From a virus (lineage: Duplodnaviria; Caudoviricetes), in IMG/VR virus record IMGVR_UViG_3300021431_000115, positions 7,821 to 71,820 of that record: a stretch of DNA of 64,000 nt; one strand, 5' to 3'. A program made the position numbers and the translations under genes. Under the pieces are notes generated by a model. It was not told where the DNA came from and ran no database searches. It saw nothing but the letters and a program-made list of their open reading frames with translations. This document shows, in pieces, positions 925 through 64,000 of the stretch; within the stretch, counting starts at the first letter, position 1; each line of letters begins with the position of its first letter.

Positions 925-953
925 GATAGAGGAAGCAATACACTTCCTCTATC
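925..953 (-). terminator. Hairpin downstream of the RNA polymerase gene, probable intrinsic terminator or pause
   Basis: Perfect 11-bp stem GATAGAGGAAG / CTTCCTCTATC with 7-nt loop, 15 bp after the stop codon of 968..16165; weak U-tract. Confidence 0.55.
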
Positions 954-967
954 GGGAAGTTAATTAT

Positions 968-3900
968 TTATAAAACGTTTTTAAGCCATTGTGCTATACC
1001 TTGAGCATCAACAAAGTTAAATATATTATCTCCAACTTTGTAATATCTATTATTATCAGTAATATCAATAAATGATGAACGAATACCGCGCCAAATAGGA
1101 ATACGTCTTTGTATATATACAGAAAGTTTATTTTCTCCAGCAAATTTTCCACTATGATATTCTCCATCGAAATCATCACCTTCTAGTAACATATGACAAA
1201 GAAGATTAGCACTACTTAACAAGTCTGTAACACCACTACCAGCAGCTATAGGAGATTGATAAAGCTTTTTAGCTTCAGATGGGAATGTAAATGGAGTATA
1301 TTGTGCAGCTTCAGTTGCAAGTCTATCAGCTTCATATAATGCTAAGTTATATAACAAGTTATCGTCATCATCATCTCCTAAACCAGCTTTTAATGCTACA
1401 ACTAGAAATAGAGAAGCAAGAGTTGCATATATACCACCTTTCATTCTACGAATATTTGCTCTATCGTATTCAGGCATAAGTCTATATGCTAATTTATAAT
1501 GAGCTACAAAATCTACAACATTTTTAAGTATTTCTTGACAACTCATATGAGAATCAACTTCTTCATCGTTTAATTCCAATACATCTTTATGTCTTTTAAA
1601 TGGAATGCTTAAATAGCTCATAAGACTAGCATACATACCTTTAACTGGAGCATTACGCTCTTCACTCCACATACCTTTTACTCTGTAACGTTTCATAATA
1701 CCTATAGGAAGATGCTTATGATATTGCATAAACAAACTACCAATAAATGTATTTTCAAATTGTGCTCTACCACTTTTATCATATACACCATGAATATATT
1801 TATTTACTGATACTACTCTACGTTTAAACATTGCTAAAAGTTGTAAAGCATCTGTAGGTTCACCATCTTCTCGTTCTACATCCATTTGTTCCATAAGACT
1901 TTCTTGTTTAAATGTAAGTTGTCCGTCTTTTCCAAGTTCTAATTGACTCATGAGTGTAGGATGTAATTCATCATTTTTAAATTTCTCTTCTGCTTCTTTT
2001 CTAATCCTATCACGTTCTTTTACAAATTTGCGTTGTTGTTCATAATTTAAAGCTTCTCTTGCAAATTGAGTAGTAAAATCTTTTTGTAACCAAGCATATT
2101 CTTTAAACGTATTAGCATCTTTAGCAACCCTAGCTTTATATTTTTCATACTTTTCTAATGTTTCTGCATCTAATATATTTTTTAATGCTTGCTCATGTAA
2201 ACCTAAAGTATATTCATTAAGATTCATTATTTTATATTTAGGTTGTCCAAGAGATTCAGCTTTAGGATTAGGAACTAATCTATGAGAATATAGCATTGCA
2301 AACATAGCAGAATTTTGCATCATATGTTCACCTGAAGTTTGAGGAGTATAACCAAAATCTCTAAATTTTCTAAGTTTGTCATAAGCATTTTTAGTAAGTC
2401 TTGAAACTCCTACATTTTCATCATAATCAACTACATCTAAAGCTTTGATTATTGCTCCTTGTAAAGTAGTGGAACGCTCTTGACCTCCATGAAGTATGTA
2501 GTCCATCATAGCACTACCACTATAATAAAAACCTTTAGCTTTACCCCAATCTTTCATTCCAAAGAACTCTCTAGCAAAACCTTCAGCAGCTATAGATGAT
2601 TCTCCTAAAGTAACGTTTGCTATACCTCCACGAACATTAAGCATCATATATTGTGCAGAAGTAAGACTTTGTAAAGTACTCATCCATTTAAGAAGTTTAG
2701 GATTTTGTTTCTTTTTAAATTGATTATAAACTAATCTACGAATAGTTACATCAAATTGTTGAATGAGATATTCATCTTGTTTTCTGATATATTCAGAACT
2801 ATCGTCAGTACTACTAGCAAAGTCTTTCTTTAAAATTTGTTTACCGTTAGCTTTATATCCTATAACATAAGGAGCATATTTTTTAATTAAGTCCTTAGCA
2901 TAGAACAATTCATATTTGTTATCTTGAATAGCATTATAAGTTCCTGCTTGAACTATAAAATCTTGAATAACATTTACCCAATCTCTATCAAGAAGGTCTT
3001 TATGAATTTCTTTATTAGCTTTTTTAATTTCTTCGTTATCTTTTTTCACTTTTTCAACTTCTGCTTCATAACTTGCTTCACTTTGATTTTCTTTTCTTTT
3101 AGGCATAGGTTTAAGTTTCTGAGTTCTCTTATCTTCTAGCTGTTTAATCATTGGCATAGGATTCGGTCTATCCTTAGCATAACTTACATCTTCATAATAT
3201 TCATTTTGAGTATAAGTTTCTCCAGCCCAACCTAAAGTTTTGAGAACTTCTTGAGCCCAACCCATAGCAGTTACAGGTTTAAGCCTATTTCTAACAGGAA
3301 GTTGTCCACGTTTAAAATATGCTTCAGAATCTTGTGTATTTGCCAAACCAACAAGTAATTCTTGTATACGTTCAGCTGCTTCTAGTTCTATGTCATTAGC
3401 ATCTATATGATTGTCATATTCAGGATTAGAACCTATTTTATAATTAGCACCATGTCCTGCATTCTCTTTGTAATTTTTATTAACGTAATCTTCATCATCA
3501 AATTTGAATGCAACAATGTCTTTAGGAGTTGTAATATTGATATTAGGGTCAATACTTTCTATCTTTTCTTTTAATGATTGATAATGTTGAGTGGCTTCTT
3601 TTAAAGTTACATGACCATCTCTTACTTTTCTTTCAGACTGAGAGAATTTAGGATAATAATTATATTTACCATTAGATTTGTATTCTGTTACAGTCCAAAT
3701 TGGAAGAGGTTCCATTCTGTGAGTATATGGATTATATACATGGTTTTTAGTCATCCAAACATTATATTCCGCTAAAGTATGATTATGACGCATATCATAA
3801 CGAACTTCATAATATTGTTGAGATGGTTTAGTTTCAACATGTTCTTTAAGTGTACGAATAGCATCTGTTTTTTCAGTATCTATCCAATCAGCTTTTTTAG

Positions 3901-6900
3901 CTCGTAAAAAACTATAGATGAATTTATTAGGAACAGCTTCTCCAGTAAAAGGATCTATACGTTTAATAACACGAAGCATATTAGTTTTAAATTCACCAGC
4001 ATCTAATTGATATGCGAAATTTTCATCGTCTGCGAATTTAGCTTCATTAATAGCATCAAAGTCTACATTTTCCTCAATCCATTGAGCACGGGCTCTATTA
4101 CCAGGTGTATCATCACCACTTTCAAAAATTAACTCTAAATCGTGATATAAACCATCAAGTTCTTTTAAAACTGCAAGTCCTTCAGCATTTTGAGGAATTT
4201 CATGTAATTTTAATTCGCCTGTAAAAGAATCATAATAAGGTTCAAGAAGCTTATTAATTCTTGTTACAACTTCTCTATAAGTAGAAGTATGTGTTACAGC
4301 ATCAGGATTCCTAAGATTATTATAAAACTGTTTAGTATAGATTACCTCTACAGGTGGTCTATTAGCTATTAAAGTATTATCAGAATAAGGATTATCATAA
4401 TCGACTTGATAAGAATCATAAATCTCTCTTTTAATGTTGTCAAGAGCTCTATCTGGAACTAAAGTAGGGTCAAATACTCCAGTTTCAGGATTTTGATAAG
4501 CTGGTTCTTTTACAATTCTTTTAAATATAGTACTTTTTCTAGGGTCTTTAAGAACTTCCCAAGCATGTTGAACTGCAGTTTTAGTAAATTCATCTATATC
4601 TGGTTCAATTATAGCATTACGTCTAAGCCATTTTTTAGCTCTTTTGTAATCTTCTTTCTCTTGATAAATTGTAGGAGGTATGTCACTACTTTCATATTTA
4701 TCTACTATAGCCTTATTATCTTCTACTAATGCTTCAAAATTACTCTTAGCATCATATTTATAATATTTATGGTCTATCTCTCGTAATTTATCTATATAAT
4801 TTCTAATAACTTTAGCTTGACCATATCTAGTATCATCGATAGAATATAATTCAGGAGTAGTAAGTTCTTTTATTTTTTGTTCAACTTCATCAAATTGTCT
4901 ATCCAAATCTGGATTATCTATATCTCTATGATATTTTTGACTTAATTGCCAACGTTGTGCTCTAAGAGTTTCATATCTAGATAGAACTTCATCTATTTTT
5001 CCTTCTGTTTCTATTTCACCACTAATCTCATTTTTTACTTGTCTACCATATAAAGCTTCTCTTAAAAGCTTATTTCGTTCATCATAATATTCTTGAGGAG
5101 CTTCTTGTTCTAGATATTTAGCTTTCCATTCATCATATTCGAGCTTAGCTTTAAGATATTCTACACTACCTTTTTCTTCTTTATTTACAGCAGCTTTTAA
5201 TCTGTCTCTATCTTCTATAAGCTTTTCACTATAAGGCTGTTTAAATCGTCCATATTCATCAATAACATGATTTAAATCAAAAAATTTACCTTGTTCTTTA
5301 GCTCTTTTTTCACAGTCTTTAATATAATTTAAAAACTTATTAGCTAATCTATGTGCCTGCATTTGTTTAGCAGCAACATCTTGTTGGAAATTTTTTAAAG
5401 CTATTTGAATAATTGGATTGCTAGTTTCTTGAATATCATTAAACATGGCATTAGCCCAGTTAGTTCTATAGTAACCATCAAGAACACTCATGAACCCATT
5501 TGGATTAGTACTATTTTTAACTAAAGGGTTATCAGTAAGTTCATCATAATAACCTTCAGCAAATTTTCTTTTAGCATTATTGATAGCAGAAAGATTCTTA
5601 AGTTTGCCTATAGACTCTTTATATTTATCAAGATATGGCTTAAGTTCAGGGTCTTCTGTTTCAACATTTAAATCTGAAATAATACCAAATTCTTCAATCA
5701 TAGCACCTGGTTCAAGCAAATCTTGCATATACTTTCTTCTAAGCTTAGGATTGCGTTTAACAATATCAATAGTTTTTGTATCATCTATAGATAGCCACTC
5801 ACCATTTTCATCTTTTATATATTTCTGAGTTTTATCTATAATCTTACTAGCTTCTTCTTCAACATATTTTGCTGTAGAAATTATAATATCATCCACATAT
5901 TCTGGAACTTTTTCTTTATTTGATACTACACCATTTTCTCTCCAGGCTCTACTTAATTTACCAGCTTCACTATCTTCAATATTATGGCTACGTCTATATA
6001 TACTTCTAATAGCTTGACTTGCAACATCTACAGAAGTTGTATCACCTGTTGCACTTTCAAAATCTTGAGCAACATAAATATCTTCCATAGCTTCAATAGA
6101 ATAGAAATGGAAATTATTAGGATTTACATATTTATCAGGACGTTTCTTAGCTTCCGCTACTAAGGTATCTATTATATCTTTATACCTTTCATGATCTGGT
6201 TGAAGTTTAGTTCCAAATTTTTTACCTGTATATGTCTCAATAAGTTGTTTAATTATATCATCAAGTTTAATAAATCTTAAAGATACATTATTGCCATCGA
6301 TAGTGATAAAATCATATAATGCATTTCCTATTCCCGGAGCTTTTATATGTCTATCTAATAATATATTTTGAACATATTTGATAGATTCACCATTAGAAAT
6401 TCTATTTCTATACCAATCTTTAATAGTATTTGCAAGACTAGTATATGCTGGATCAGTGTCTAATAAATTTCCTAAAGGAACATTTACTTTATCTGCAGAA
6501 AACCTAGGTTTATATCTATACTCTTCAGGATTAACTTTAGGAGTTTGTGATTCGTATGGAGAAATTTTAGAACTTTTTGTAACATAAATAGGTTTATATA
6601 TATTACGAATTTGTGCATTATATGATTTTAAAGATTCTTGCCAATTATCAGCTATAGGCTTTATATCATCAAAATAAGTATTATCTTGTTCAACATCTAA
6701 AGATACTATAAATCGAGGATTATTAATTTGTTTATAAGTTATACTCCAATATGCATCATATTCATCTGTTTTAGGAACATAAGTTACTTTTATATCTGTT
6801 ATATCAGAATCATCTTTTAAGTCATCAACAATATCATTAGCTTGATTTTTACTAAAAGCTTCATCGTAAACATCTGTTACTAATTCATCAGGAACTTCTC

Positions 6901-9900
6901 CTCTTAATCTAGGAGTATACCAATGTTCAAATTCCTCTACAGGGAGGTTATTAACTCTTTCAGTAATTGGAAGATTTTGAGCATCTTTACCTGTTACTTT
7001 ATCATAATTAACAACAATTTGACCAGTTTCTTTATCTGTTTTATAAATAACTGCTTTTTCTTGTGACGGATAACTTTGTTTAAAGTAAATAAGTTGTAAA
7101 GTTTTTACTCTACCTCTAAATTCTGGTACAAGAGTTTCAAGAAGTTGTTTATAAGCATTTAACTGATATGTATATTTAAGTGTATCACCATTTAAATTAC
7201 CATTAGAATCTAATCCATACTCGCCACGTTTAGCTTTCATATCAAAAATATGAATATCACCATTACCATCTATAACAATCATATCAGGTACACCAGCAAC
7301 AGTCATTTCTTGTCCAGCTAATGTAACACGACCAGCAAGTCTTATTTCATTGGTAATAACATGATAATTACCATTAAATCTTTTATCAAGATAAGATTTA
7401 AATTTATCTAAGTCAGCAAGAACTTCATTTTTTCTATCTTCGTTAAGATTAGGATATTTTTTTAATCTTGGGTCTACACTATTATCTATTCTATCATTAA
7501 TCTTATTGTAATAATCAATCCAATAATCTCTAGTAATAGCATCTATAGTTCTACCAAAAGCAGAAGCAAATTCATAATCTATATTTCCAGGATTATGAAA
7601 TTTAGGAATACCTTTTATAGGTAATTGTGTAACAGAAGATTCAATCTTAGCACCATTATAATAATATTCATGCTTCGGGTCATCAAAAGTTATATGTTCG
7701 TTTTGCCATCGAACATAATGTCTGAGAGCAGCTAATTGTGCTTGAATTGCAGGAGTTGGATTAATATCTGTAAGCATATCAATACAATCCTGCTTTTTCT
7801 TATTTTCATTAGCTACAGTTTCGTCTAAAACATTTTGTTCTGTTTGTTCTTCATAATTATGATAAAGAGCCCTATAATAGTTAGGATTCAGATAAGTATT
7901 GTTAGATTCTACTGCAGACCAAACACTAGTTTCATTTGGAGCCAGAGGGTTAAGAGGTATCAAAAGAAGCTTATTATTAAGGTAATCTATTTTATAAAGA
8001 GTTTGTTCTTTACCAAAATTTAAATAAACGTATCTATTAGTATTTAAATGATAATGTTCAATGAGTTCTTTAGTTTTTTCATTTTCTTTACCTTCTGCAT
8101 CATAAAGTGGCAAATAAATGGCTCCTTCATTATCTCTTACTAATTCAGCTTCATTGTTTTCATTTTTTCTAACCCATCTAAGTTTAAGACCATTTTCTCC
8201 TAAAGTACTACGTAAATATGATTCTATTAATTGTTCTCCATCAACAGATGAAACCTCATTATAAAAATTAGACATTCTTTGATTAGAGTCGTAAACAATA
8301 TTAGTTCCCCCTGTAGAAGGACTTCTACGTAGAACACTATTCGGAATCATCTTTGATATTCCGTTCATCTTCATTTTGTATCCTTCTACAACAAAAGCAT
8401 ACTTAATTAAATCTCCAGTAGCTATAGCAATAAGAGGATTACTATTTGTAAATGATTGTTCAAACTGAACTCTAACTGTTTCTAAATCTACAAGACTATC
8501 ATTAAATCTAATTGTTTGTCTTCCAGCTTGACTTCGTCTATGATTAAATAATTCAACTTCTAAATGTTCAAATAAACCTAAATCTCTAAAGTTTTGTTGT
8601 ATAAACAATACTTTTTGGGCAGGAGAAAGTTTACAAAAATCATTGATTTCATCTTGCGATGGATTTCTAATATCAGCTACAGCAAAAGGCTTATTTATAC
8701 CTTCACCAATCAGTCTTATATCAGCAGCATGACCATAACCAAAAATTCTAGACATTTCTTCATCATTTGTAGTTTTAGGAGCTTTTCCTACAAAGTCAAA
8801 GCCTTGTCCTTTAATATAAGACAGAGTAGCATTAATAAAATCAGATTTCTTAATTACACTATTGACTACATATTGCTGAAAGTCCATAGCCATCTTTTCA
8901 GTAAGTCTAACATCAGGACCTAAAGCGGTTTTTAAACTAATATCTTTTCCATTAATAAAATCTAAAAATTCTTTGCTTTGGGTTAAAAACAAACCTTTAT
9001 TTATTTTTATACTAGAAGCAGTGGCATATTTAAAAAATGCAGCAATGGAAGGATATTTAGAATCTGTTATAAAATTACTATCGGTTATTATGCCATCAAG
9101 CAATTCGTCTTCTGTATTATACTCTGACACTCTAGGATAAATAGCTTCAAGCATATGATGTCCATCTACTTCAAGAGTAGAAATCAAATTACTATCAGCA
9201 TCATAGGCATTTTCTATTATTTCGTGCAATTTAGAAAATACTTCACGAGTTTCATAGATTGTTTGCTTTGCTCCAAACTTATCAGGATTCATTACTCTAG
9301 AAGATTGATTAACTTCTTGAGCAATTCTATTTAAAGCATTATAATTAAGAATAACTTTAAAATCATACAGCAATTTTAATTCTTCAGATTTTAAACCTTT
9401 ATATTCTTTAGCAAATCTATTATTTTTGTCAACGTTAGGGTCTTCTGCTTTAAGTCTGTCTAATTGAGAATCAACATCAAGATAACCGTAGGTTATACCG
9501 TCATCTTGTTTTTGCGACACAATAGGATAAACTTTTCCATATGCATCTTCTACTTTAGCAATAAGACTCTCTAAACCCTCGTATGCTGTAACTTCAATGT
9601 TCAATTCTCTACATATATCTCTAGCTACAGCAGTTATAAAATCACTACCTGTTTGATCTGAATATATAGAATTAGATGCATTGTACTTTTCTACTATTCT
9701 AGTAATAGCAGGTTGCATAATAAAAGAAACAGCTGTGTTAAAATTGCTTCCTATATCTACAAGAGTTTTATAAACATGGAAAGTTAAATCGTTTACATTT
9801 TTAACATTACCAGCCTTAATAGCATCAAGAATATGAGCAGTTGTTTGAGAAGAATAAGACGTTAAAATTTTACCATCAACATTGTGATTATCATTAGACC

Positions 9901-12900
9901 AACCAAACATATTGTGTCTAACAATATATCCAGAACCATCCTTAACCTTAGTAACATAATTAACACCAAATCTTTTTTGCAAAGTTTCTAAATCGTATGA
10001 ATTATCATATTTGACTTTAACTTCGCAGCCTGTTCTTAGTTTGGTATGTAATCTATTAGAAATAGAACAAATTGTATCACGTACTACACTGATACCTTTT
10101 AATGCAAGACCGCTGGTAGCATCTTCATGATAATCTATTTGGTCAAAGATATTATAAGGAGAACGAGCAGCACGCTCTTTATTGCTAGTACCTACATTAC
10201 ATAATTGTATAGCTTTTTTAACATCATCAAAGTTTGAACGAGAAAGATTTTCTTCTACTTGTGTTTTGTCAGAAAGAATCTTCTTAAATATGTCCAAAAG
10301 TTTATTGTTTCTAGCTCCTCTTTTATTAGCTTTAACTTCATCAAAACCATCAGAAAATTCTGCAAAAGAATTAAAACCTTTGTCTTCAGCAATATCATCA
10401 ATATTAGCGTCAAATAATTCCTTTTTTTCTTTTTTTATTTCCGCTGATATTGCAGCTTCATCTACATTACCATCTTCATCTATATTGTTTTCTCTAGTTT
10501 TATTGATGTAATCTTCTGCTAATTTACTATCTTTATAAAGTTGAGTTTTTTCTTCTTTTGTAAGTTGGTCTAAAACATACTTATTATAAAAATCTCTAGT
10601 AGACTTATATTTGTATTTTCTTATATTACCGTTTTTATCTTTATAAGTACTATATTGAATACCGTATATAGAGTCAATATCAAAGTCCGCACCAGTTTGA
10701 CTAACAAAAGCATCAGGAACAACGATAGTAGAACCATAAGCATTATCAGTAAAATCTTTTATTTTCATTATACAAACAGATTGCTTACCTTCAGTAGGAA
10801 TACGATATCCAATTATAGTATCAAGACCTTCAGTTCTAAGCTTTTCAAGCCAATCTTGTTTCACTTGATTCTCTGCTTGTTCTACAGTCATTCCAAGTTT
10901 AGTAATATAATTATTGATTTTACGTTGCGTAGCTTCATCATCCATAGTAAAACCAAAATTAGATGCAGGTAATCTAATTTCGATGTGATGTTCTACTACT
11001 CCATCTTTAACTTCAGGATGATAATCAAGGTCATTAGAAGTCATTTTTCTATTGACTTCTTCACTTAATTTTCTAAAACCAAAACCACTAACTTGTGCAG
11101 CATGAAATCCTGGTAACGTTTGTCTAGTAATGCCTCCATTAAACATACTTTGAGCAATATTCTCAAACTTAGTACCAAACATACCAAAATAATTAGGCAT
11201 TAGAGTTTGAGAAGGAAGCATACCCATAGGATCTTTAGTACAATAATCTACAAGATTTGTATCATCTCCACGTCTTGTAACTTCATCAAGCATTGCTTGA
11301 AAAAACTCATCATAACTAAGACCTTTTTTAATTACATTACCATTTTCATCTTTTATTTCTACTGGTATTTCTCCATCTTCTAGTTTAATATTGCCGTTTT
11401 CATCAAGTTGTATATTAAAACGTTTCATAACAGTTTCAAAACTTTCTTGAATGTTTGCAGTATAAAGTTTGAAGAAGGTTTCTCTATCTTCCTTTAACGG
11501 GGAGTTATCATCAATATTATCTAGAATCTTTTTCATTATTTGAATAGCTGCTTTATTTTCGCTATTCACATGTTGAGGAGTTTCTTGTTGAGTATAAAGG
11601 AAATTATAATTAAATCTTTCAGCTGCAGCTCCTCCTTTTTGCATTATTTCAGACTTATAATTAGCAGCATCTTTTACAGCATCATCATCTATATCATCAA
11701 GAATATCTTGACTTATATGACCAGTATCATCCCAAAGCTTAAATCTTTCGTTTTGTCCAGCTTTAGAAGTTTCAGCAGTATTAAGTTGGTCTATACCCAA
11801 CTTGTCCATCATCTTAGCTACTTTTTCTAATTCTGTACCTCTAACAAGTCTAGGAACAAGGACAAATTCAGCATTTTTTATTTGTCTAGGAGAAATAGTA
11901 TGAAGCTTTTCATTATAATATTGGTCATAATAAAAGTTCTTTTGAACTTGTATAAATTGCTTTATATCATCAGCGTTTAAAGGTTGTGTTTCATCAAGAA
12001 CTCTATCAATTAATTCTTTATATTTAGGAAGTTGTCCACGCATTGTAATACGTCTAATCCATTCATCAAAAGTAATATAGGACTGAGCATCATTTACAGT
12101 AGTTTCTTCATACCCACTCATAAGCTTCTTAGCTTCTTCTCTACTCATAACACCATTGTTAGTAAACCAATCGACCATCCTATCAATCATAGGCTGGTCA
12201 GTACGAATAGTATTATAAATAGTTATAGCTTTAAAAGTCTTTCTAAGTTCGAGTTTATGAATTCTAGTTACAGGTTTTCCACTTTTTCCAATTACTTTAT
12301 CTCTAAATACTGTTGTATCTAAAGGACTATCAAGATGCTCATCTCCTGGTTGCCACTCCATAGTTAAATCTCTAAGACCATAAGGAACACCAGAACCTTG
12401 TGCTTCTTTAGCACGTTTTAAAAATGTTTGTGTATTTTTATAGAACTTTGTATCTCCTTCAAATAAATCGTTAAAACCATTATAAGCAAGATGAGTATTT
12501 AAAACAAAATCTATAATGCTATCATCGGTTATAGGTGTACTACCTTGTTCAACAAACTCTTCTTTACCTTCTAGTTTTCTTCTACCAAAATCAAGATATT
12601 TCAAAAGAAAAGCTTCTATTTTGTCATCTATAACTTTTTGTTGTTGCTCTGAAAGTATAACATCTCCATTTTCATTCCATTGCAACATTAAATTTGAATC
12701 AACTTCATCATCTTTGAAGAAATTAAAAGCTTCATCTAATATTTCTTTTCCAAAATTTCTTTCATCATAAATTTCGCCATCAAATAATCTAAATCTGTCA
12801 CTGCTAAATACTCTACCAGTAAGATGTACTTTTCCATTTTTATCTACAGTATATATAGGACCTTTGCCGTCATTATCTTCATTTTCGGCAAAATGATATA

Positions 12901-37410: not shown

Positions 37411-37455
37411 GGTAGATTGATTACACCCCCTGTAGAAGGAATGTATCAATCTACC
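37411..37455 (-). terminator. Intergenic hairpin enclosing a copy of the dispersed motif
   Basis: 11-bp stem GGTAGATTGAT / ATCAATCTACC, loop contains CCCCCTGTAGAAGGAA; followed by TTT on the minus strand. Confidence 0.5.
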
Positions 37456-47995: not shown

Positions 47996-48025
47996 GTCTA
48001 CCACCCCTATAGAAGGATGGTAGAC
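47996..48025 (-). terminator. Hairpin after the capsid operon enclosing a copy of the dispersed motif
   Basis: 8-bp stem GTCTACCA / TGGTAGAC with loop CCCCTATAGAAGGA; followed by AATCTTTT on the minus strand. Confidence 0.55.
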
Positions 48026-51045: not shown

Positions 51046-52521
51046 TTAGAGTACGCACTTGAGGTGCATCATCTTTGTAGCATTATTCACTTGAAGACCA
51101 TAAGTATTCTTAATCTCATACCTAGACATATCAATCTCAGTAGCAATACTATTAGTCGGAACACCACCCCAAGATGGAGGAATAGGAGTAAGACCTTTAA
51201 GCACACCACTAAGATAAACTTGTCCCTTCAGACGAACCTTACGAATATTACGAGTTCCCTCATAAGTACTCATATCAAGCAAGAAGCACTGGTGAGAACT
51301 CATAGGAAGTCCTGTACGAGGATGAATATTACCGTTAGACTTATCATTCTCTGCAATAGTTCCCTGGTCAAGAAGAGGAAGATGCTTAACTGTAATAACA
51401 TGATTATCAACAGTCTTATAACGACGGAAATACTTTCCATAAGAAAGACCACCTTCGAAATCTTCAATCATCTTATCTCCAAGAGGAGTAGCAAAACCTT
51501 CACTACGAGCATCATTACGCATAGCCATATCAAAGTCTTGCATGAATCCTTTACCACCCATAAGAACTACTTCCATAGTGCCAGTATCAGTGTCCTTATT
51601 AAGAATGTCACCGATAGTACGCTCAATCTTATTAAGTGTAAGATACTCACCATAAGTATCATAGTTAGACTCAGAACAAATCTGACGCATACCAGCGGTA
51701 TGAGGAATAGGCTGACCATTATCAGGGTCAATAAGCGTAACTTCTCCATTTACATTTCTATTGTATTCAGCAAGCCACAGACGCTCTTCATCCATGATAC
51801 GCATCTGAATATCATGTTGACGTTGCTCTTCATTAATCCAAAGATTGGTTGTACCACCACCCTTTGTCTTAAACTGATAAGTAACAATAACATTAGAAAT
51901 ATTACCTGCAATCTCCCAACTATAACGGTGATACTCAAGTTGAGAAGTCATCTTACCAGGACCCATACTATTCATACGGTTACCCTTAGAATAAGAAGCA
52001 CTAATTGTAGGAGCAGTCATACTCCAATATTTACCAACACCAAGTTGAGCAGGGTCAACAAAAGCATTAGGATTAGGATTAGTAAGTTTGAGTCGATAAA
52101 CAAAACCTCCATGAGGACCCTCACCAAGGTCTTTCATAATACGAACTTGAGTAATACCATCAGGAGCAATCAAACCATACTGTTCAATAAGCCAGTGAGT
52201 AGCAAACTCAACATCAAACATAGCACCACCTTGTCCTGGAGTAGTATTAGCTGTATCAAAGAAAATAACATAATCGTTGTACCTAGAACGACCCATAGTC
52301 TTCCAAGTCCAAGTTTCAGTTGCAATGTCTACAGTACCAGCACTACCTTGACCTTCTGTCAAAAATGTAAGAGGAAATCTATCATCATCCATACCATAGG
52401 TATAGGTCAGAGTATTATTAATTTCCTCTGGATGAGTAAGCATAAGATGAGCAATAGTTTCCTCATTGGAATACCCACGGTCATCAAAGTTACCGCGAGA
52501 TACTTCTCTAAGTTTGTACAT
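51046..52521 (-). CDS. Major capsid protein (crAss-like)
   Basis: 491 aa; DDRGYSNE...YGMDDDRFPLTFLTEGQG, WINEEQRQH, strongly biased codon usage; position after the scaffold-like gene. Confidence 0.9.
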   Translation of the reverse strand: MYKLREVSRGNFDDRGYSNEETIAHLMLTHPEEINNTLTYTYGMDDDRFPLTFLTEGQGSAGTVDIATETWTWKTMGRSRYNDYVIFFDTANTTPGQGGAMFDVEFATHWLIEQYGLIAPDGITQVRIMKDLGEGPHGGFVYRLKLTNPNPNAFVDPAQLGVGKYWSMTAPTISASYSKGNRMNSMGPGKMTSQLEYHRYSWEIAGNISNVIVTYQFKTKGGGTTNLWINEEQRQHDIQMRIMDEERLWLAEYNRNVNGEVTLIDPDNGQPIPHTAGMRQICSESNYDTYGEYLTLNKIERTIGDILNKDTDTGTMEVVLMGGKGFMQDFDMAMRNDARSEGFATPLGDKMIEDFEGGLSYGKYFRRYKTVDNHVITVKHLPLLDQGTIAENDKSNGNIHPRTGLPMSSHQCFLLDMSTYEGTRNIRKVRLKGQVYLSGVLKGLTPIPPSWGGVPTNSIATEIDMSRYEIKNTYGLQVNNATKMMHLKCVL

Positions 52522-52545
52522 ACGTTCAAATTATAAGTTAAACAA

Positions 52546-54197: not shown

Positions 54198-54482
54198 TTA
54201 TATAATAATGAGTAGGAAAGCTATTTCTATTCCAACAAAACCACCTATAACAGTTGCTATAGCATCTTTAAAATCAACTGTTCCTTTATGGTTTTTATCG
54301 TATTGTTCTTTAGCTAGCCCTAATAAGAAGACGATGCTTAATGTTAGCACCCCGTTAGAGAGTATGTTTGACAACCACAGATTGTTTACTCCCATTATAA
54401 CACTACCTAGAATAAGTCCTACAATAAAATGTAATAGTTTATCAGCAGGAATACGTTTAATTAGTTCTAATAATTTTTTCAT
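54198..54482 (-). CDS. Small membrane protein (VanZ-like DKxxH family)
   Basis: 94 aa; DKLLHFIVG, KEQYD, DAIATVIGG; three hydrophobic segments. Confidence 0.65.
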   Translation of the reverse strand: MKKLLELIKRIPADKLLHFIVGLILGSVIMGVNNLWLSNILSNGVLTLSIVFLLGLAKEQYDKNHKGTVDFKDAIATVIGGFVGIEIAFLLIII

Positions 54483-59166: not shown

Positions 59167-59558
59167 TATAAAATTAAACTTAAAATCATTAACACAACAG
59201 ATGTTCCAGCGATACCTTTATAAACCTTATTTCTATTATTAAGTTTTGCAATCTTTTTATTCTGTTCTTCTATAACTTTATTAGAATGATCAACTACAAT
59301 CTTATAAGTATCAACTTCTTTATCGTAAAGTTTAATAACTGAATTAAGACTGTCATTTATAACTTTTTGATATTTAAGTTCAATCATTTTAGCATTAGCT
59401 AGTCTTAATTCATCATAACTAACTAAAACAGAATCTGAAGATACTAGCCCCCCGTTAGAAGGAACTTGTGCATTACTCCCGCACCAACTCCCTAAACAAC
59501 TCCAAAGTACTATCGTTACTAAGAGTTTTAACTTTTTCAATCGTATCATGTTTTTCAC
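59166..59558 (-). CDS. Putative spanin component (signal/lipoprotein N-terminus, coiled coil, C-terminal TM)
   Basis: LLVTIVLWSC lipobox-like segment, coiled coil, C-terminal IAGTSVVLMILSLIL; overlaps the upstream gene by 86 bp; follows the lysin. Confidence 0.55.
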   Translation of the reverse strand: MKNMIRLKKLKLLVTIVLWSCLGSWCGSNAQVPSNGGLVSSDSVLVSYDELRLANAKMIELKYQKVINDSLNSVIKLYDKEVDTYKIVVDHSNKVIEEQNKKIAKLNNRNKVYKGIAGTSVVLMILSLIL

Positions 59559-59784
59559 TATCTAATTTATTAACATCTTTTTGTATTTCTTTAATAGCTT
59601 CGTTGAGTGAATCAATTTTATTAATTTCCTCTACAGGGGAGGTAATAGGCTTATATTCATCATTAAAGCATTTAATAATACAAGAAAAAGCAAAAGTTAC
59701 TATCAATGCAACAATAACAAATGCTGAGAAATAAAAACATCCGTCTTTCATTTCTAAATCTCTTATATCATCGTCATATCTCAT
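59473..59784 (-). CDS. Putative inner-membrane spanin (Rz-like)
   Basis: 103 aa; N-terminal TM helix then coiled coil; directly after the lysin. Confidence 0.55.
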   Translation of the reverse strand: MRYDDDIRDLEMKDGCFYFSAFVIVALIVTFAFSCIIKCFNDEYKPITSPVEEINKIDSLNEAIKEIQKDVNKLDSEKHDTIEKVKTLSNDSTLELFRELVRE

Positions 59785-60401
59785 AGGTCTTGTTCTCTAA
59801 TTAAAGTATAAGTAAAAGAATTACCATATAGACTTCTTTGTTTTTCACAAAGACGAATAAAAGAATTAAATTGAACAGGGTCTTGGAATACTTGACAACC
59901 AGCAGAATAATTATTTATTCTTGGACTAGCATAATAAGGATTAGCTCTATGTATGTTTATTCCAAAAAACCCTTTGTCTATTTTGTCAGGAGCGTAATCA
60001 TATACAGCATCTTTATTACCATCTCTATAAACTTTTACTATCTTTCTTTGACAAAGTGCTTTATATTTTCCTTTATGTAGACCTAATTGCCAAGCACCTT
60101 TATATTGTCCAGGAGCAAGAATTGCTGTGCCTTTACGATTACCTAAATGTTTAACCATATAATAAGCACCTGGGTCAGTAGTGATATTATAGATTTGTTT
60201 CTTTATCGTGTTTCCTATTTTATATTCAACTACAAGGTAGTCGTCAAATAAATCAGTAACTTTATTATCATTATCTGAACGAATACCAATTATATTTAAA
60301 TTATAATCACCTGCTGTAAAATAAGAATAACCGAGCTTTAAAAATAATTTTTCAAAATCGCAGGATTGTATTTTATTTCGTAATGTCAAATTCATCATCA
60401 A
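59781..60401 (-). CDS. Putative endolysin, L,D-transpeptidase (YkuD)-like catalytic domain
   Basis: 206 aa; GINIHRA...NYSAGCQVF matches the H-x(n)-SxGC motif; ITTDPG; upstream of spanin-like genes. Confidence 0.65.
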   Translation of the reverse strand: MMMNLTLRNKIQSCDFEKLFLKLGYSYFTAGDYNLNIIGIRSDNDNKVTDLFDDYLVVEYKIGNTIKKQIYNITTDPGAYYMVKHLGNRKGTAILAPGQYKGAWQLGLHKGKYKALCQRKIVKVYRDGNKDAVYDYAPDKIDKGFFGINIHRANPYYASPRINNYSAGCQVFQDPVQFNSFIRLCEKQRSLYGNSFTYTLIREQDL

Positions 60402-61377
60402 ATAAATTTAATTGTTTAGTAGTATTAAGTTTACCTTGAAGAACAGTAAGTCTGTCATTTAGTATGTCAATACATTCTTTCTTCAAATAATTAATTCTAT
60501 GCCATGTAGCTTTATCCTCCCCGTTAGGATCAACGTGATAACCATCAATATCACGAAATGGTTGACCATATTGATTAAGTATAAAAGGGGTAGCAATATG
60601 ACAAAGTCCTAGACCTACACACGGTATATTAAGTATATTCTCAGTAAGTACAGCATAAAGACTAAGCTGAAGAGAATAGTGACTACCATTACAATCTTCA
60701 AGATGATTAAGAGGTGGGAGCATTTTATCTCCTTTATAAACCCAATCATTAGTTAATTGATTTGGTACTACAGTTTTATCTTTCTTATAATATCCATTTT
60801 CAAATTGAAGTCCTTGTCTATTGGTTTTCCAATCAAGAATAACAAAATCAGTTGCTCTAACACAAAGGATGTCAATCGTTCCAGATATAAGAAAATACGG
60901 GTCAAATACACCAATTTCAGAATAAATAGTATAACCTTTATCAGTATAATATTTAAATACTCTATATATTTCAGGATATTTATTATTAGTGGCTTCTATG
61001 AATTTATCTATATCTAGTGGAGTAGGAAGCATATCTGGAATATCTGCAACTGTAATACAACGACCATCAGTTTGTTGTAGATACTTAATAGCATCTTTAA
61101 AGCGACTAACATCTTTAATTGCAGTTTCAAGACCTTCATGCTTTTGGTTTCCACGAGAACAAGCCTCATCAGTAATCTTAGCCCACTGTCTTAATATCTC
61201 TTTTTCCGATACCCCCTGCTCCTTTGCTTTCTTTCTTGCCCAATACTTAGAATCAAACTTTGGTACATATTCATGTATAAAAGTTGTAACACTAGTATAT
61301 TCATTACCTAGTGTATCAGTGTATTTATGAGGACCTTCATCAAAATACAGAAAGGTATTTTTATATCGTTCGTTCAT
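60373..61377 (-). CDS. PD-(D/E)XK family nuclease
   Basis: 334 aa; FDEGPHKY...SVTT, RGNQKHE, SE...SGTIDIL...ILDWKT, YSLQLSLYA. Confidence 0.85.
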   Translation of the reverse strand: MNERYKNTFLYFDEGPHKYTDTLGNEYTSVTTFIHEYVPKFDSKYWARKKAKEQGVSEKEILRQWAKITDEACSRGNQKHEGLETAIKDVSRFKDAIKYLQQTDGRCITVADIPDMLPTPLDIDKFIEATNNKYPEIYRVFKYYTDKGYTIYSEIGVFDPYFLISGTIDILCVRATDFVILDWKTNRQGLQFENGYYKKDKTVVPNQLTNDWVYKGDKMLPPLNHLEDCNGSHYSLQLSLYAVLTENILNIPCVGLGLCHIATPFILNQYGQPFRDIDGYHVDPNGEDKATWHRINYLKKECIDILNDRLTVLQGKLNTTKQLNLFDDEFDITK

Positions 61378-61380
61378 AGT

Positions 61381-61995
61381 CTAAAGAGAATTATCATCTG
61401 CATCCATACTACTAAGAACTTGAGCACCACCACGAGCAAGCTCCGTTTCTTTCTCGTACATCAGATTTTGTTTAGCTTCTTCTAATTTTTTAAGAATACC
61501 TGGCAAATCACCAGCTTTTTTATTCACGCTATCAATTAGAGTAAGAATAGTAGCAGTATCTTCAAGAGTTAAGTTACTATTCATTTTTTCATTAAGCAGA
61601 TTATTAATTAAAGATATACTAAGATTTATATTATGAATACCTTGCATGATATTTTCTACAACACGACCAGCTTCAGTAATATTTTCTTCATAATATCTTC
61701 TAATTAAATGTAATACTAGTTTATCAGGAATATAACTAGATGGCAAATCTGCTTGAGCAATAGCCATTTTTAAAGCCTCTGGGTCACTTAAACCACTTTG
61801 TCTAGCAGGAGATTTTGGATCACCAAGATAATAAATAACAATACATTCTTTAATGTACATACTTTTATCTTTAGTTTTATCTCTTGCATACAACTCTCTT
61901 ATTTCTTTATCTATAAGTTGCCGAGTTGTTGGAGGCTTTGGCATACCAGTTTCATCTATAGTAATTAAACTATCAATATCTAGTTTATATTTCAT
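61381..61995 (-). CDS. Conserved crAss protein, terminase small subunit candidate
   Basis: 204 aa helical, ends in ARGG-containing tail; conserved position upstream of the nuclease/terminase. Confidence 0.5.
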   Translation of the reverse strand: MKYKLDIDSLITIDETGMPKPPTTRQLIDKEIRELYARDKTKDKSMYIKECIVIYYLGDPKSPARQSGLSDPEALKMAIAQADLPSSYIPDKLVLHLIRRYYEENITEAGRVVENIMQGIHNINLSISLINNLLNEKMNSNLTLEDTATILTLIDSVNKKAGDLPGILKKLEEAKQNLMYEKETELARGGAQVLSSMDADDNSL

Positions 61996-62468
61996 ACAGG
62001 AGGATTTATATCGCAGTCACTAATACAATACATATAGATTCTAGCATAAACTTCACCTTTGGTTTTACAAAGTTTTCTATACAAATGAGAATTTCTACTA
62101 GCAGTCATGCTAACTATATGTCTGTATAATCTTTCTTGTTTCTCTTTTTTACCTGCATCTACAGCAAGATTACGTCTAAAAAGAATATATTTTTCTTTTG
62201 GCATTGTTTCCTTAGCAGTAGCCAAAAGTTCTTTATTTTCTTCAGATCTAAATCTTTTAGAAACTTCTGGTATTCTAATATTCCCAATAAAAGGAATACC
62301 TGTCCATCGACCTTCTTGAAGAAAGTTACTAGCATCAAGTTCACATTGAGTAACAATAGCCATAGCAACTTCTTTATCTATGATATTTTTCTCAATGCAA
62401 TCAATAATGTCAGATTTTCTAAAAACTTTAACTTCAAAACCATTAGGAAAATTAAATGTATCAGCCAT
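61992..62468 (-). CDS. Conserved hypothetical protein (possible HU/IHF-like fold)
   Basis: 158 aa; LQEGRWTGIPFIGNIRI resembles the HU/IHF beta-arm signature. Confidence 0.5.
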   Translation of the reverse strand: MADTFNFPNGFEVKVFRKSDIIDCIEKNIIDKEVAMAIVTQCELDASNFLQEGRWTGIPFIGNIRIPEVSKRFRSEENKELLATAKETMPKEKYILFRRNLAVDAGKKEKQERLYRHIVSMTASRNSHLYRKLCKTKGEVYARIYMYCISDCDINPPV

Positions 62469-62500
62469 AGGATTACCAATAGTTTCCTCTAACGGGGGGC

Positions 62501-62522
62501 TGGTACAGCGTTAGCTGTACCA
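62501..62522. other. Intergenic hairpin between two oppositely oriented motif copies
   Basis: 9-bp stem TGGTACAGC / GCTGTACCA with loop GTTA. Confidence 0.6.
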
Positions 62523-62568
62523 TTACTAGTTCTGCTAGTTCCCCTGTAGAAGAAATGTGATGAATTAA

Positions 62569-63207: not shown

Positions 63208-63308
63208 AGAATAATATTTCGTATATAATATATAATAAGGTGTAAATTTGGACTGATTTAAGTATTTTTAAGATAAATGTTAAATTTTAGTTAAATATTG
63301 TTAATGGG

Positions 63309-63340
63309 CTTGCGTATTGTTTGGAAATGTCGTAACTTTG
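63309..63340 (+). promoter_or_regulatory. Rightward Bacteroidota-type promoter (divergent)
   Basis: CTTG (63309-63312), 20-nt spacer, TAACTTTG (63333-63340). Confidence 0.6.
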
Positions 63341-63347
63341 CAAGCAA

Positions 63348-63432
63348 GGGGGTGAGGGGGTGAGGGGAGTAAGGTGGAGATGGTGGAGATAATAAAGATA
63401 ATAAAAGATAAATAAAAGATAATAAAGATAAT
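63348..63432 (+). repeat. G-rich and AATAAAGAT-type tandem repeats
   Basis: GGGGGTGA x2 + GGGG, GGTGGAGAT x2, then about four AATAAA(A)GAT units. Confidence 0.8.
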
Positions 63433-64000
63433 TAATTTATTTTATTTTTATATTTTATTTTATTCTTTATTTTTATCTTCAAACTTATCGAGAAGCTGAT
63501 ACTGAAATTAGTGCTGAAATTGATGCTAAAGATGATACTAAAAGTGACATAAGAACTCCAGCTGGTAGAAATATTAATAATAGTAAAGAGAATAATAGCT
63601 TTACTAGCACCCCTGTAGAAGGAATTGATTGACATATTACTCATCCTGCTATAATTATCGCTACTTAACCTATAAAAAGATGACATATTGGTTTTAATTA
63701 TACTCATTTTGCGCTTAATATACTAGTTGCTCCGTAAATTAATCGACTAGTAATTTTGGTACTTCTGTTTGTGAAAATCGAAGTACTTTTTAAATAGAAG
63801 TTTGCTTCATAATAAAACATATAATGAATTTAAATTTGGTCAAGTAGGTGAATATCTACTTAATACTATTACTGCTTGTGAAAGTCGTAATAGTTTTTAA
63901 TGAATTGATTCGTTTTATTTACGATACCATATTCTTATTCATTTATTGAACGTCTTGCTTGTGAAAGTAGGACGTTTTTTTTTTGTTGAAGGTAAAAGAG

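What the first reader, a model, noticed from the sequence alone, without database searches (positions are those of the whole stretch)
944..63624. Genome-wide ~19-bp DNA motif (TAGCACCCCTGTAGAAGGAA-like) embedded in genes in both orientations: candidate unknown recognition system
Seen: 23 copies counted by eye, roughly one per 3 kb. + strand: 8302 TAGTTCCCCCTGTAGAAGGA, 17338 GCCCCCCTGTAGAGGAA, 19727 TTGCTCCCCTGTAGAAGGA, 28414 TAGCCCCCCGTTAGAGGAA, 37422 TACACCCCCTGTAGAAGGAA, 39172 GTTCCCCGATAGAAGAAA, 48004 CCCCTATAGAAGGA, 54345 TAGCACCCCGTTAGAGAG, 59445 TAGCCCCCCGTTAGAAGGAA, 62536 TAGTTCCCCTGTAGAAGAAA, 63605 TAGCACCCCTGTAGAAGGAA. - strand: 944, 6932, 11489, 16428, 19112, 23266, 29797, 34360, 36859, 50937, 59626, 62484. 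Seventeen copies lie inside unrelated CDSs and are read in at least four frames (STPVEE, SPLKE, TPYKG, PSTGG, PSNGG, PLTGG). They use GGG/CCC/ACC/ACG/CCG codons that are otherwise scarce in this AT-rich genome, and they account for many of its C4/G4 runs. Selection is therefore acting on DNA, not protein. The 11:12 strand split within a one-directional gene arm argues against promoters, terminators or polar Chi/KOPS-like sites. Inference: binding sites for a phage protein that organises, protects, segregates or helps package/eject the genome (parS/matS-like), or recombination/nicking sites. Candidate readers in the window are the IHF-like genes (34642..35598, 61992..62468), the HTH gene and the two PD-(D/E)XK domains. 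I know of no description of this motif, but could not search.
Basis: partly seen in the sequence, partly recalled or inferred. Interest (0 to 1): 0.9.

Follow-up and report, generated by a model that had tools for sequence, protein, structure and literature searches.

The report
Strand-specific DNA word of crAss-like phages
This crAss-like gut phage keeps about two dozen copies of one ~19-base DNA word on both strands, even inside genes, and its relatives, including the prototype human crAssphage, keep their own spellings at even intervals along each strand, so it is a real DNA signal whose reader and function are still unknown.

Summary
The window holds 24 copies (11 on +, 13 on -) of TAGCNCCCC-NN-TAGARGAA. 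The core is about 10-fold commoner inside genes than in codon-preserving shuffles.

It is not a mobile insert or a protein motif, and the one bacterial family sampled does not carry it in excess. Copies arise by codon choice and point substitution without length change.

Five other Intestiviridae genomes, including prototype crAssphage and cultured crAss002, carry their own spellings, 21-32 copies each. crAss001 (Steigviridae) carries a 9-mer word and cr127_1 (Crevaviridae) a different GC-rich word.

In the five complete Intestiviridae genomes each strand carries its own evenly spaced series. Same-strand neighbours are never closer than 2 kb, while opposite-strand copies can lie 26-120 bp apart. 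Orientation ignores gene direction. This points to a phage factor that reads one strand while tracking along the DNA.

My pick, at about 20%, is a phage-private Chi-like resection signal. Primase start sites and nick sites are close rivals. A parS/matS-like duplex binder is disfavoured.

This window's own contig shows the spacing rule only weakly.

This scan has reported the same motif class at least eight times on other crAss-like genomes. I found no paper describing it.

The parts
944..962 (-). motif copy TAACTTCCCGATAGAGGAA, between the giant RNAP ORF and the next ORF
   Evidence: PWM 24.0. Its 3' half pairs with downstream CTTCCTC. The orthologous post-RNAP sites in cr271_1 and ctcc615 form hairpins with different arms.
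4343..4361 (-). weak copy TAGACCACCTGTAGAGGTA in ORF 968..16165
Evidence: PWM 24.8.
6932..6950 (-). copy TAACCTCCCTGTAGAGGAA, sense, read NNLPVEE
8303..8321 (+). copy AGTTCCCCCTGTAGAAGGA, antisense in ORF 968..16165, read SPSTGGT
   Evidence: Exact 14-mer. No length change against cr271_1 or ctcc615.
11489..11507 (-). copy TAACTCCCCGTTAAAGGAA, sense, read NSPLKE
   Evidence: Homologues read TSPLWE / NSPIYH / NSPLHA with other codons and no gap.
16427..16445 (-). copy TAGCCCCCCTATAGATAAA in ORF 16184..23491
17336..17354 (+). copy TTGCCCCCCTGTAGAGGAA, antisense
19112..19130 (-). copy TAAATCCCCTGTAGAGGAA, sense, read KSPVEE
19727..19745 (+). copy TTGCTCCCCTGTAGAAGGA, antisense
28414..28432 (+). 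copy TAGCCCCCCGTTAGAGGAA, antisense in ORF 26871..28859
   Evidence: ctcc615 has a motif at the same aligned place, 77734.
29797..29815 (-). copy AAGCTCCCCTATAGAGAAA in ORF 28861..33903
34359..34377 (-). copy TAGCACCCCTGTAGGAAAT in the tail ring protein 1 gene
36859..36877 (-). best copy TAGCACCCCTGTAGAGGAA, sense, read STPVEE
   Evidence: PWM 40.3
37422..37440 (+). intergenic copy in the loop of an 11-bp hairpin
   Evidence: Hairpins are not enriched at sites overall.
39170..39188 (+). weak copy GCGTTCCCCGATAGAAGAA
   Evidence: PWM 20.3
46805..46823 (-). weak copy TACCTTCCCTATAGATGAA. It may be chance on a conserved FPIDE peptide.
47999..48017 (+). intergenic copy in the loop of an 8-bp hairpin
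   Evidence: The orthologous site about 3 kb downstream of the capsid gene is kept in IMG/VR relatives with other stem sequences: L038, L042, L043, L044, L045.
50937..50955 (-). copy TAGCACCCCTGTAGAAGAA, sense, read STPVEEM
54345..54363 (+). copy TAGCACCCCGTTAGAGAGT in the portal-to-capsid gap
   Evidence: Relatives keep 1-2 copies in this region, for example L039 at 425 and L041 at 2350.
59445..59463 (+). copy TAGCCCCCCGTTAGAAGGA, antisense
   Evidence: cr271_1 has a motif at the same aligned place, 6997.
59626..59644 (-). copy TACCTCCCCTGTAGAGGAA, inside the alternative ORF 59473..59784
   Evidence: ctcc615 has a motif at the same aligned place, 47822.
62484..62502 (-). left member of a back-to-back pair in a 100-bp gap
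62536..62554 (+). right member of the pair
63605..63623 (+). copy TAGCACCCCTGTAGAAGGA in a region without a credible gene

Best explanation
The motif is this lineage's spelling of a strand-specific DNA word that Intestiviridae keep at roughly even 5-7 kb intervals on each strand. Other Crassvirales carry words with other spellings.

Shown:
- The word is written into genes by codon choice and conservative substitution, and it is parked in intergenic gaps where these exist.
- It is kept at some orthologous places across genera.
- Its orientation ignores the direction of transcription.
- The one bacterial family sampled does not carry it in excess.

Inferred:
- It is a cis signal for a phage-encoded factor that reads one orientation while moving along the DNA. 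That points to replication, recombination or DNA-processing machinery rather than transcription, translation or a duplex-coating protein. My confidence in this umbrella reading is about 0.5.

The concrete mechanism I commit to, at about 0.2, is a phage-private Chi-like 'self' signal. A phage exonuclease or helicase-nuclease (the PD-(D/E)XK nuclease, helicase and RecT module) enters at any DNA end. It is stopped or switched to recombination when it meets a correctly oriented word. This limits resection of phage DNA, while host DNA, which lacks the word, gets no such protection.
For: The motif is real and selected on the DNA.

No length change against homologues: 12 ungapped tblastx alignments run through 6 own sites.

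Lineage spellings, each among that genome's top 11- or 12-mers:
- own TAGCnCCCCtgTAGAgGaa, 27 sites
- cr271_1 aGCtCCCCCGTAGAaGaa, 21
- ctcc615 aCCtCCCCCGTAGaaGGt, 23
- cr8_1 AGCCGCCCCGTAAAaGG, 28
- prototype crAssphage gACyCCCCGTrGAGGAtGga, 32
- crAss002 tTCCCCCrTAaAGGaG, 31

Orthologous placement:
- 7 of the 8 cr271_1 sites whose flanks align to ctcc615 have the motif there, in the same orientation, at about 55-60% protein identity.
- Over 16 orthologous pairs, core identity is 0.75 against 0.50 for the flanks.

Per-strand spacing:
- Gap CV is 0.25-0.50 against about 0.9 for random placement. P is at most 0.006 in 9 of 12 strand sets.
- In five complete genomes, 0 of the 37 adjacent gaps under 2 kb are same-strand.
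- Strand-label shuffles give a mean of 18.2 and a minimum of 7 in 20,000.
- Positions relative to the opposite strand's series are about uniform.

Orientation against genes: 51 sense to 61 antisense in genes, 27 to 23 between genes.

Bacterial genomes:
- The 12-mer pattern has 195 matches against 216 for the reversed control in 41 genomes, about 125 Mb (my sums).
- The 8-mer core has 247 against 480 in 5 genomes.

crAss001: CTCCAGAAG occurs 27 times in 100 kb. Its + strand CV is 0.46 (P = 0.0002) and both strands are used in both gene arms.

Background from a review (passages seen): PD-(D/E)XK nucleases occur in all crAss-like phages and the mode of replication is unknown.
Against: - No reader protein was found, and nothing here is experimental.
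- Known Chi sites are 5-8 nt and belong to host enzymes (recalled). No phage-private Chi is known to me.
- These phages also encode Gam-like nuclease inhibitors (record annotation).
- This window's own contig obeys the spacing rule only weakly. CV is 0.57 and 0.61 (P about 0.04), 3 of its 13 short gaps are same-strand, and strand switches are not in excess.
- cr271_1's + strand series (n = 7) is not regular (P = 0.58).
- No GC- or AT-skew step occurs at the sites.
- Even per-strand spacing fits priming or nicking equally well.
Confidence: 0.5

Rival explanations
1. Preferred start or loading sites for the phage DnaG-type primase (or primase-helicase) on each template strand. Priming would then occur at set intervals on whichever strand is lagging.
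For: - Each strand has its own even series.
- The primase is the only replication gene conserved across all crAss-like phages (review passage).
- The template reading CCCCCGTA would give a G-rich primer, by analogy with T7 primase sites (recalled, not tested).
Against: - DnaG-type primases recognise trinucleotides (recalled). A 9-20 nt word would have no precedent.
- If the two gene arms are two replichores, as the review suggests from GC skew, only one strand per arm would need sites. Both strands carry them in both arms.
- One site per 5-7 kb is sparse for Okazaki priming.
Confidence: 0.2
2. Sites of localized single-strand nicks in the packaged or replicating DNA, as in T5, phiKMV-like and tf phages. 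Here the nicks would lie on both strands.
For: - This is the only known phage feature with a dispersed, lineage-specific 7-20 nt consensus unrelated to transcription. Phage tf has 14 sites TACT/RTGMC and phiKMV-like phages have CGACxxxxxCCTA/CTCCGG. That paper hypothesises co-evolution of nickase and site (passages).
- Same-strand spacing would divide each strand into even segments.
Against: - In T5, phiKMV-like phages and tf the nicks lie on one strand only. Here the two strands are used about equally.
- 14 adjacent opposite-strand gaps are under 250 bp, down to 26 bp. Nicks there would make staggered near-breaks.
- No raw reads were on hand, so fragment ends could not be examined.
Confidence: 0.13
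3. Duplex binding sites of a phage protein that silences, organises, segregates or packages the genome (stoperator-, parS- or matS-like).
For: - The word is about 20 bp, asymmetric and information-rich, with 21-32 copies per genome and lineage spellings. This resembles the more than twenty 13-mer sites of the L5 repressor (passage).
- A back-to-back pair lies just upstream of a possibly HU-like gene.
Against: - Stoperator orientation follows the direction of transcription. Here it does not.
- A bound duplex site should make a nearby opposite-orientation site redundant. Yet only same-strand copies avoid each other.
- About two thirds of the sites (112 of 162) lie inside genes.
Confidence: 0.1
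4. Accumulation by molecular drive, as with DNA uptake sequences. Some biased recombination or packaging step would favour DNA that carries the word, with no further function.
For: - The anatomy is like USS/DUS. Both orientations occur, copies sit in tolerated coding positions and frames, inverted pairs sit in intergenic gaps, and lineages have dialects (abstract of PMC2817400; the rest recalled).
- Own copies sit at variable residues.
Against: - Drive alone does not predict even per-strand spacing or same-strand avoidance.
- Uptake sequences are far denser, 765-1,892 per genome (headings).
- Phages have no uptake step.
Confidence: 0.05
5. A transcription or RNA-level signal: a promoter for the virion RNA polymerase, a terminator, or a processing site.
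For: - The length, the copy number and the way the spelling varies with lineage recall T7-type promoters (recalled).
- Some intergenic copies overlap hairpins that look like terminators and covary between genomes.
Against: - There is no orientation bias relative to genes.
- About two thirds of the sites lie inside genes.
- Hairpins are not enriched at sites: stems of 8 bp or more occur at 5 of 162 sites against 5.3 expected.
- For phi14:2, early transcripts had no common motif and middle promoters are sigma-70-like (passages).
- There was no Rfam match.
Confidence: 0.04
6. A mobile mini-element, a protein-level motif, or chance.
For: Sense copies encode S/T-P-V/I/L-E/K-E.
Against: - There is no length change against homologues.
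- Antisense copies are as common as sense copies.
- Codon-preserving shuffles lose the motif.
- The single sense frame is explained by TAG stops in the other two frames.
Confidence: 0.01

Closest known systems
Nick-associated motifs of T5, phiKMV-like and tf phages
   Same: A dispersed, phage-private, lineage-specific 7-20 nt consensus, found in genes and between them. Its function is unknown, and co-evolution of site and enzyme has been proposed (PMC3517423, passages).
   Different: All described cases lie on one strand only and number 4-14 sites. Here both strands are used about equally, there are 21-32 sites, and each strand is evenly spaced. Nicking was not tested.
Chi sites (RecBCD/AddAB)
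   Same: An orientation-specific word read by an enzyme tracking from a DNA end. It occurs about once per few kb and its spelling differs between lineages (recalled).
   Different: Chi is 5-8 nt, is read by the host enzyme and is over-represented in the host genome (recalled). Here the 8-mer core is under-represented in 5 genomes of the sampled family (247 against 480), and the word is 9-20 nt.
DNA uptake sequences (USS/DUS)
   Same: Both orientations occur, copies are written into tolerated coding positions and frames, and lineages have dialects (abstract of PMC2817400). Inverted pairs in intergenic gaps are recalled.
   Different: Uptake sequences are bacterial, number hundreds to thousands, and are read by the competence machinery. 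I know of no report of even per-strand spacing for them.
Stoperators of Cluster A mycobacteriophages (L5 repressor)
   Same: More than twenty asymmetric sites spread through a phage genome, with spellings that evolve along with the repressor (PMC9283540, passages).
   Different: Stoperators are 13 bp, lie in short intergenic spaces and promoters, and are oriented with transcription. Here about two thirds of sites lie in genes and orientation is independent of transcription. No repressor is known.
Primase recognition sites (T7 gp4, DnaG)
   Same: A strand-specific template signal needed repeatedly along each strand (recalled).
   Different: Known sites are 3-5 nt and very frequent (recalled). 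This word is 9-20 nt and occurs once per 5-7 kb per strand.

Membership tests
Phage nick motifs (T5 / phiKMV / tf type) | Physical single-strand interruption at the motif in virion DNA | not testable with these tools
   Only assembled contigs of public runs were available, with no raw reads.
Phage nick motifs (T5 / phiKMV / tf type) | All sites on one DNA strand | tested here: not met
   The window has 11 on + and 13 on -. The six Intestiviridae genomes have 7-18 on + and 13-17 on -, against one strand only in tf, phiKMV-like phages and T5.
Chi sites | Over-representation of the word in the host chromosome | tested here: not met
   195 matches against 216 for the reversed control in 41 genomes. 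The 8-mer core has 247 against 480 in 5 genomes. The true host is unknown. The family sampled is that of a MAG titled Paraprevotella.
Chi sites | Orientation-dependent attenuation of a helicase-nuclease | not testable with these tools
   This needs biochemistry or in vivo degradation assays.
USS/DUS | Preferential uptake by a competence apparatus of the organism that carries the word | not testable with these tools
   This does not apply to a virion genome. Only the anatomy is alike.
Stoperators (L5-type) | Orientation correlated with the direction of transcription | tested here: not met
   51 sense to 61 antisense in genes, 27 to 23 between genes, against a 'striking correlation' in L5.
Stoperators (L5-type) | Location in short intergenic spaces and promoters | tested here: not met
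   112 of 162 sites lie inside ORFs. Intergenic DNA is still enriched, holding 50 of 162 sites in 4-10% of the sequence.
MITE-like or other mobile mini-insert | The copy is an insertion relative to homologues that lack it | tested here: not met
   12 ungapped tblastx alignments run through 6 own sites with no length change.
Known RNA families (Rfam 15) | Match to a covariance model at the sites | tested here: not met
   One sub-threshold snoRNA hit elsewhere and nothing at the sites.
T7-type phage RNAP promoters | Sites upstream of genes and co-oriented with them | tested here: not met
   For phi14:2, no common motif was found for virion-RNAP transcripts.

The most novel reading that the evidence does not exclude
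Crassvirales mark their own DNA with a private, orientation-specific word placed at even intervals on each strand. A phage-encoded helicase-nuclease or exonuclease can then destroy or resect any DNA lacking the word, including host DNA, while sparing and recombining phage DNA. This would be a viral 'self' Chi system whose spelling co-evolves with its reader.
Probability: 0.15. Interest if true: 0.9.

Novelty: new variant of a known kind. Interest (0 to 1): 0.78.

Why it matters
crAss-like phages are the most abundant viruses of the human gut. According to a 2023 review their mode of DNA replication is unknown.

A conserved word with strict per-strand geometry is present in prototype crAssphage and in the cultured crAss001 and crAss002. 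It gives a direct experimental handle on how these genomes are replicated, recombined or protected. Possible approaches are pull-downs with either strand, native long reads, primer or resection mapping, and synonymous recoding.

The word also matters for annotation. It explains odd GC-rich codons and locally conserved synonymous sites. It could serve as a lineage marker. It is also a constraint to respect when recoding or engineering these phages.

Tried and rejected
- Hairpin display of the motif. Earlier notes on this window suggested that the word is shown in hairpin loops. Two window copies do sit in tight hairpin loops. Over 162 sites, however, perfect stems of 8 bp or more enclosing the core occur 5 times against 5.3 expected from 9,000 random positions. 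I dropped it as a general property. Some orthologous intergenic hairpins do overlap the word with different arm sequences. I read those as terminators that host a copy.
- Strand-composition step at sites. There is none: GC-skew change 0.004 +/- 0.008 and AT-skew change -0.001 +/- 0.004 over 159 sites.
- Population variation. Read laying on 4 contig runs listed only 40 of 2,271 variable places. None lay in a motif core, but this is not a valid test. No raw reads were on hand, so fragment ends and nicks could not be examined.
- Exact own 15-mer in IMG/VR. It gave 22 single, chance-level hits.
- Prototype-crAssphage 16-mer in genome contigs. The rows shown were almost all single hits spread over many phyla. 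The two stretches with two matches lie on contigs binned into MAGs, one of them crAss-sized at 98 kb.
- Rfam. Nothing at the sites.
- Candidate readers. Pfam, PHROGs, PDB sequence search and the ESM Atlas gave no DNA-binding assignment better than a weak HU-like lead. I did not run structure prediction, complex prediction or the large homology searches, because a fold alone would not link a protein to the word.
- Literature. Three sequence-string searches and four keyword searches found no paper describing the word. Supplementary file 1 of the phi14:2 preprint, which lists promoter motifs in other crAss-like genomes, could bear on this and was not seen.

Full report
**What the window is.** The window is bases 7821-71820 of a 71,820-bp linear virus contig that CheckV rates 77% complete. 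GC content is about 30%, and all long ORFs lie on the - strand. The capsid protein is 84.5% identical to that of crAssphage ctcc615 and 82.8% to that of cr271_1. Both belong to Intestiviridae, subfamily Obtuvirinae. Pfam finds crAss tail ring proteins 1 and 2, and PHROGs finds an exonuclease at 60373..61377.

**Observation.**
- A PWM grown from the sequence gives the consensus TAGC-N-CCCC-NN-TAGA-R-G-R-A.
- It finds 24 sites in the window (11 on +, 13 on -) and 27 in the contig.
23266 is not called, and two weak extras appear.
- The 14-mer with up to 2 mismatches has 12 matches against 0.12 expected.
- A test that does not depend on the PWM uses the core CCCC..TAGA. It occurs 15 times inside ORFs against 1.42 (maximum 6) in 500 codon-preserving shuffles.
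- 20 of the window's 56 C4/G4 runs lie in sites.

**It is selected on the DNA and is not an insert.**
- Sense copies all use one frame (S/T-P-V/I/L-E/K-E), because the other two frames carry TAG.
- Antisense copies use three frames, mostly P-S-T-G-G.
- I examined six own sites by tblastx against 2-3 relatives each. Twelve ungapped alignments run straight through the motif.
- The relatives encode similar or different residues with other codons. For example, own NSPLKE is AACTCCCCGTTAAAGGAA and cr271_1 TSPLWE is ACTAGTCCTCTTTGGGAA.
- So copies are made in place by point changes where the protein tolerates them.

**Lineage spellings.** The commonest GC-rich 11- or 12-mers of every Intestiviridae genome I fetched belong to the same word.

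| Genome | Consensus | Sites |
|---|---|---|
| cr271_1 | AGCTCCCCCGTAGAAGA | 21 |
| ctcc615 | ACCTCCCCCGTAGAAGGT | 23 |
| cr8_1 | AGCCGCCCCGTAAAAGG | 28 |
| prototype crAssphage BK010471 | GACYCCCCGTRGAGGATGGA | 32 |
| crAss002 (cultured) | TTCCCCCRTAAAGGAG | 31 |

- Most of the 80 IMG/VR loci around the capsid gene carry CCCCCGTAGA-type copies.
- The window's lineage has relaxed the CG before TAGA to TG, GT, TA or GA.

Outside the family:
- cr127_1 (Crevaviridae) has a different word, CGCCCTTGTGGCCA, 10 times.
- crAss001 (Steigviridae, 100 kb of 102.7 kb examined) has no CCCCGTA at all.
- crAss001 does have 27 copies of CTCCAGAAG. My composition estimate of the chance number is about 0.4.

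**Places are partly conserved.**
- Of the 8 cr271_1 sites whose flanks align to ctcc615, 7 have the motif at the same place and in the same orientation, at about 55-60% protein identity.
- Of the 12 own sites whose flanks align to a relative, 3 do. One more was found in the reciprocal direction.
- Over 16 orthologous pairs the 20-nt core is 75% identical and the flanks 50%.
- Other regions keep a copy but not its exact place, for example the portal-to-capsid gap.

**Geometry.**
- Orientation is unrelated to gene direction. Over 162 sites in six genomes, genic copies are 51 sense to 61 antisense and intergenic copies 27 to 23.
- 50 of the 162 sites lie in the 4-10% of sequence that is non-coding.
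- Prompted by earlier notes of this scan, I tested spacing. Per-strand gap CVs are 0.25-0.50 against about 0.9 for random placement, with P at most 0.006 in 9 of 12 strand sets.
- The exceptions are cr271_1's + strand (n = 7, P = 0.58) and this contig (CV 0.57 and 0.61, P about 0.04).
- In the five complete genomes all 37 adjacent gaps under 2 kb join opposite strands. Strand-label shuffles give 18.2 same-strand gaps on average and never fewer than 7 in 20,000.
- A site's position within the opposite strand's intervals is roughly uniform, with a small excess of close pairs.
- So the reported 'strand alternation' is a by-product. Each strand carries its own evenly spaced series, independent of the other.
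- crAss001's 9-mer behaves likewise: + strand CV 0.46 (P = 0.0002), with both strands used in both gene arms.
- This window's contig is denser and looser. 3 of its 13 short gaps are same-strand.

**Not from the host, and not a known RNA.**
- The pattern CCCCGTRRARGR gives 195 matches against 216 for its reversed control. The sample was 41 genomes, about 125 Mb, of the family of a MAG titled Paraprevotella (my sums of the table).
- That is about 1.5 per Mb, against roughly 300 per Mb in the phages.
- The 8-mer CCCCGTAG is under-represented in 5 of these genomes, 247 against 480.
- A scan of genome contigs with the prototype's 16-mer gave almost only single hits over many phyla in the rows shown. 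The few double hits lie on contigs binned into MAGs, one of them crAss-sized.
- Rfam found nothing at the sites.

**Hairpins.** Two window copies lie in hairpin loops, and several relatives have inverted motif pairs. Hairpins are nevertheless no commoner at sites than at random positions. At the site after the giant RNAP gene, and at the site about 3 kb past the capsid gene, relatives keep a hairpin with different arms that overlaps the word. I read these as terminators that host a copy.

**Reads.**
- Close relatives occur in contigs of bovine, sheep and other gut metagenomes. The four runs I laid come from four studies, with pieces such as 2,389 nt with 45 differences.
- Only contigs were held, so ends, nicks and RNA boundaries could not be read.

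**Mechanism.**
- Three findings matter most: same-strand copies avoid each other, opposite-strand copies do not, and transcription direction is irrelevant.
- Together they mean that the selected quantity is the distance to the next correctly oriented copy on one strand.
- That is what a directional, strand-reading enzyme would impose. It is not what a duplex-coating or bridging protein would impose.
- Three concrete versions fit: a Chi-like stop or switch for a phage nuclease, primase start sites, and nick sites.
- I rank the Chi-like version slightly first, at about 0.2. A word that the sampled bacteria do not carry in excess suits self-marking. Priming on both strands in both arms is also hard to square with the two replichores suggested from GC skew.
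- The margin is small, and nothing here is experimental.

**Comparison with known systems.**

| Known system | Defining trait | What is seen here |
|---|---|---|
| Nick motifs (T5, phiKMV-like, tf) | All sites on one strand | Both strands used about equally |
| Stoperators (L5-type) | Follow transcription, lie between genes | Orientation ignores genes, and about two thirds lie in genes |
| Chi | Short, enriched in the host (recalled) | 9-20 nt, not enriched in the sampled family |
| Uptake sequences | Read by bacterial competence machinery | Coding-tolerance anatomy shared, but a phage has no uptake step |

The word fails at least one defining feature of each family that I could test.

**Candidate readers.** None is supported. 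The neighbours of the 'IHF-like' ORF are tail ring proteins. That ORF and 61992..62468 have no significant family or solved relative. The latter has only a weak HU-like lead.

**Novelty.**
- No paper in the searchable library describes the word.
- This scan has noted the same class at least eight times on other crAss-like genomes.
  - same-strand avoidance explains the apparent alternation;
  - the word is not in excess, and its core is depleted, in the bacterial family sampled;
  - the hairpin test is negative;
  - crAss001 has an analogous 9-mer;
  - this lineage has a relaxed spelling and looser spacing.

Noticed in passing
window 51064..52536 (+), opposite the capsid gene 51046..52521 (-): A 490-codon ORF runs codon-aligned antisense to the capsid gene. 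It exists because the capsid gene uses no TTA, CTA or TCA codon at all, and 27 of its 36 Leu codons are CTT. The ctcc615 record even annotates such an antisense ORF as a protein. It is probably a by-product of strong codon bias.
   Followed up: partly
L234+L235 (crAss001, NC_049977.1, bases 1-100000): The 9-mer CTCCAGAAG occurs 27 times on both strands with even + strand spacing. This is a possible Steigviridae counterpart of the Intestiviridae word, in a cultured phage.
   Followed up: partly
L033+L034 (cr127_1, MT774393.1): A different GC-rich dispersed word, CCTCTCGCCCTTGTGGCCA, occurs 10 times (5 per strand) in a Crevaviridae genome.
   Followed up: partly
window 944-975, and the orthologous sites at cr271_1 66199 and ctcc615 12759: Directly after the stop of the giant RNAP gene, the 3' half of the motif forms the 5' arm of a hairpin. 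The arms differ between genomes but stay complementary: GTAGAAGAGAT/ATCTCTTCTAC against GTAGAAAGGTT/AACCTTTCTAC.
   Followed up: partly
window motif core, all sites: This lineage has lost the CpG of the ancestral-looking CCCCCGTAGA. The dinucleotide before TAGA is now TG, GT, TA or GA. The contig also has more copies per kb and less regular spacing than its relatives.
   Followed up: partly
L126/L186 (contig CAUWBF010000007.1, 98,042 bp); L149, L172 and L190 (contigs of one MAG): Contigs carrying the crAssphage word are binned into MAGs titled Clostridia and Mycoplasma. This is probably phage DNA mis-binned into bacterial genomes.
   Followed up: no
G014:C12:15439-19253: Four matches to the degenerate 12-mer fall within 4 kb of one contig of a bacterial genome of the sampled family. 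This may be a crAss-like or other phage segment.
   Followed up: no
window 44001-64000: Near-identical pieces occur in contigs of bovine, sheep and other gut metagenomes from four different studies. The phage lineage seems to live in ruminant guts.
   Followed up: partly
window 968..16165 (-): A single 5,065-aa ORF, which I take to be the virion RNA polymerase polyprotein by size and position next to homologous giant ORFs annotated in the relatives, carries 5 motif copies in both orientations.
   Followed up: no
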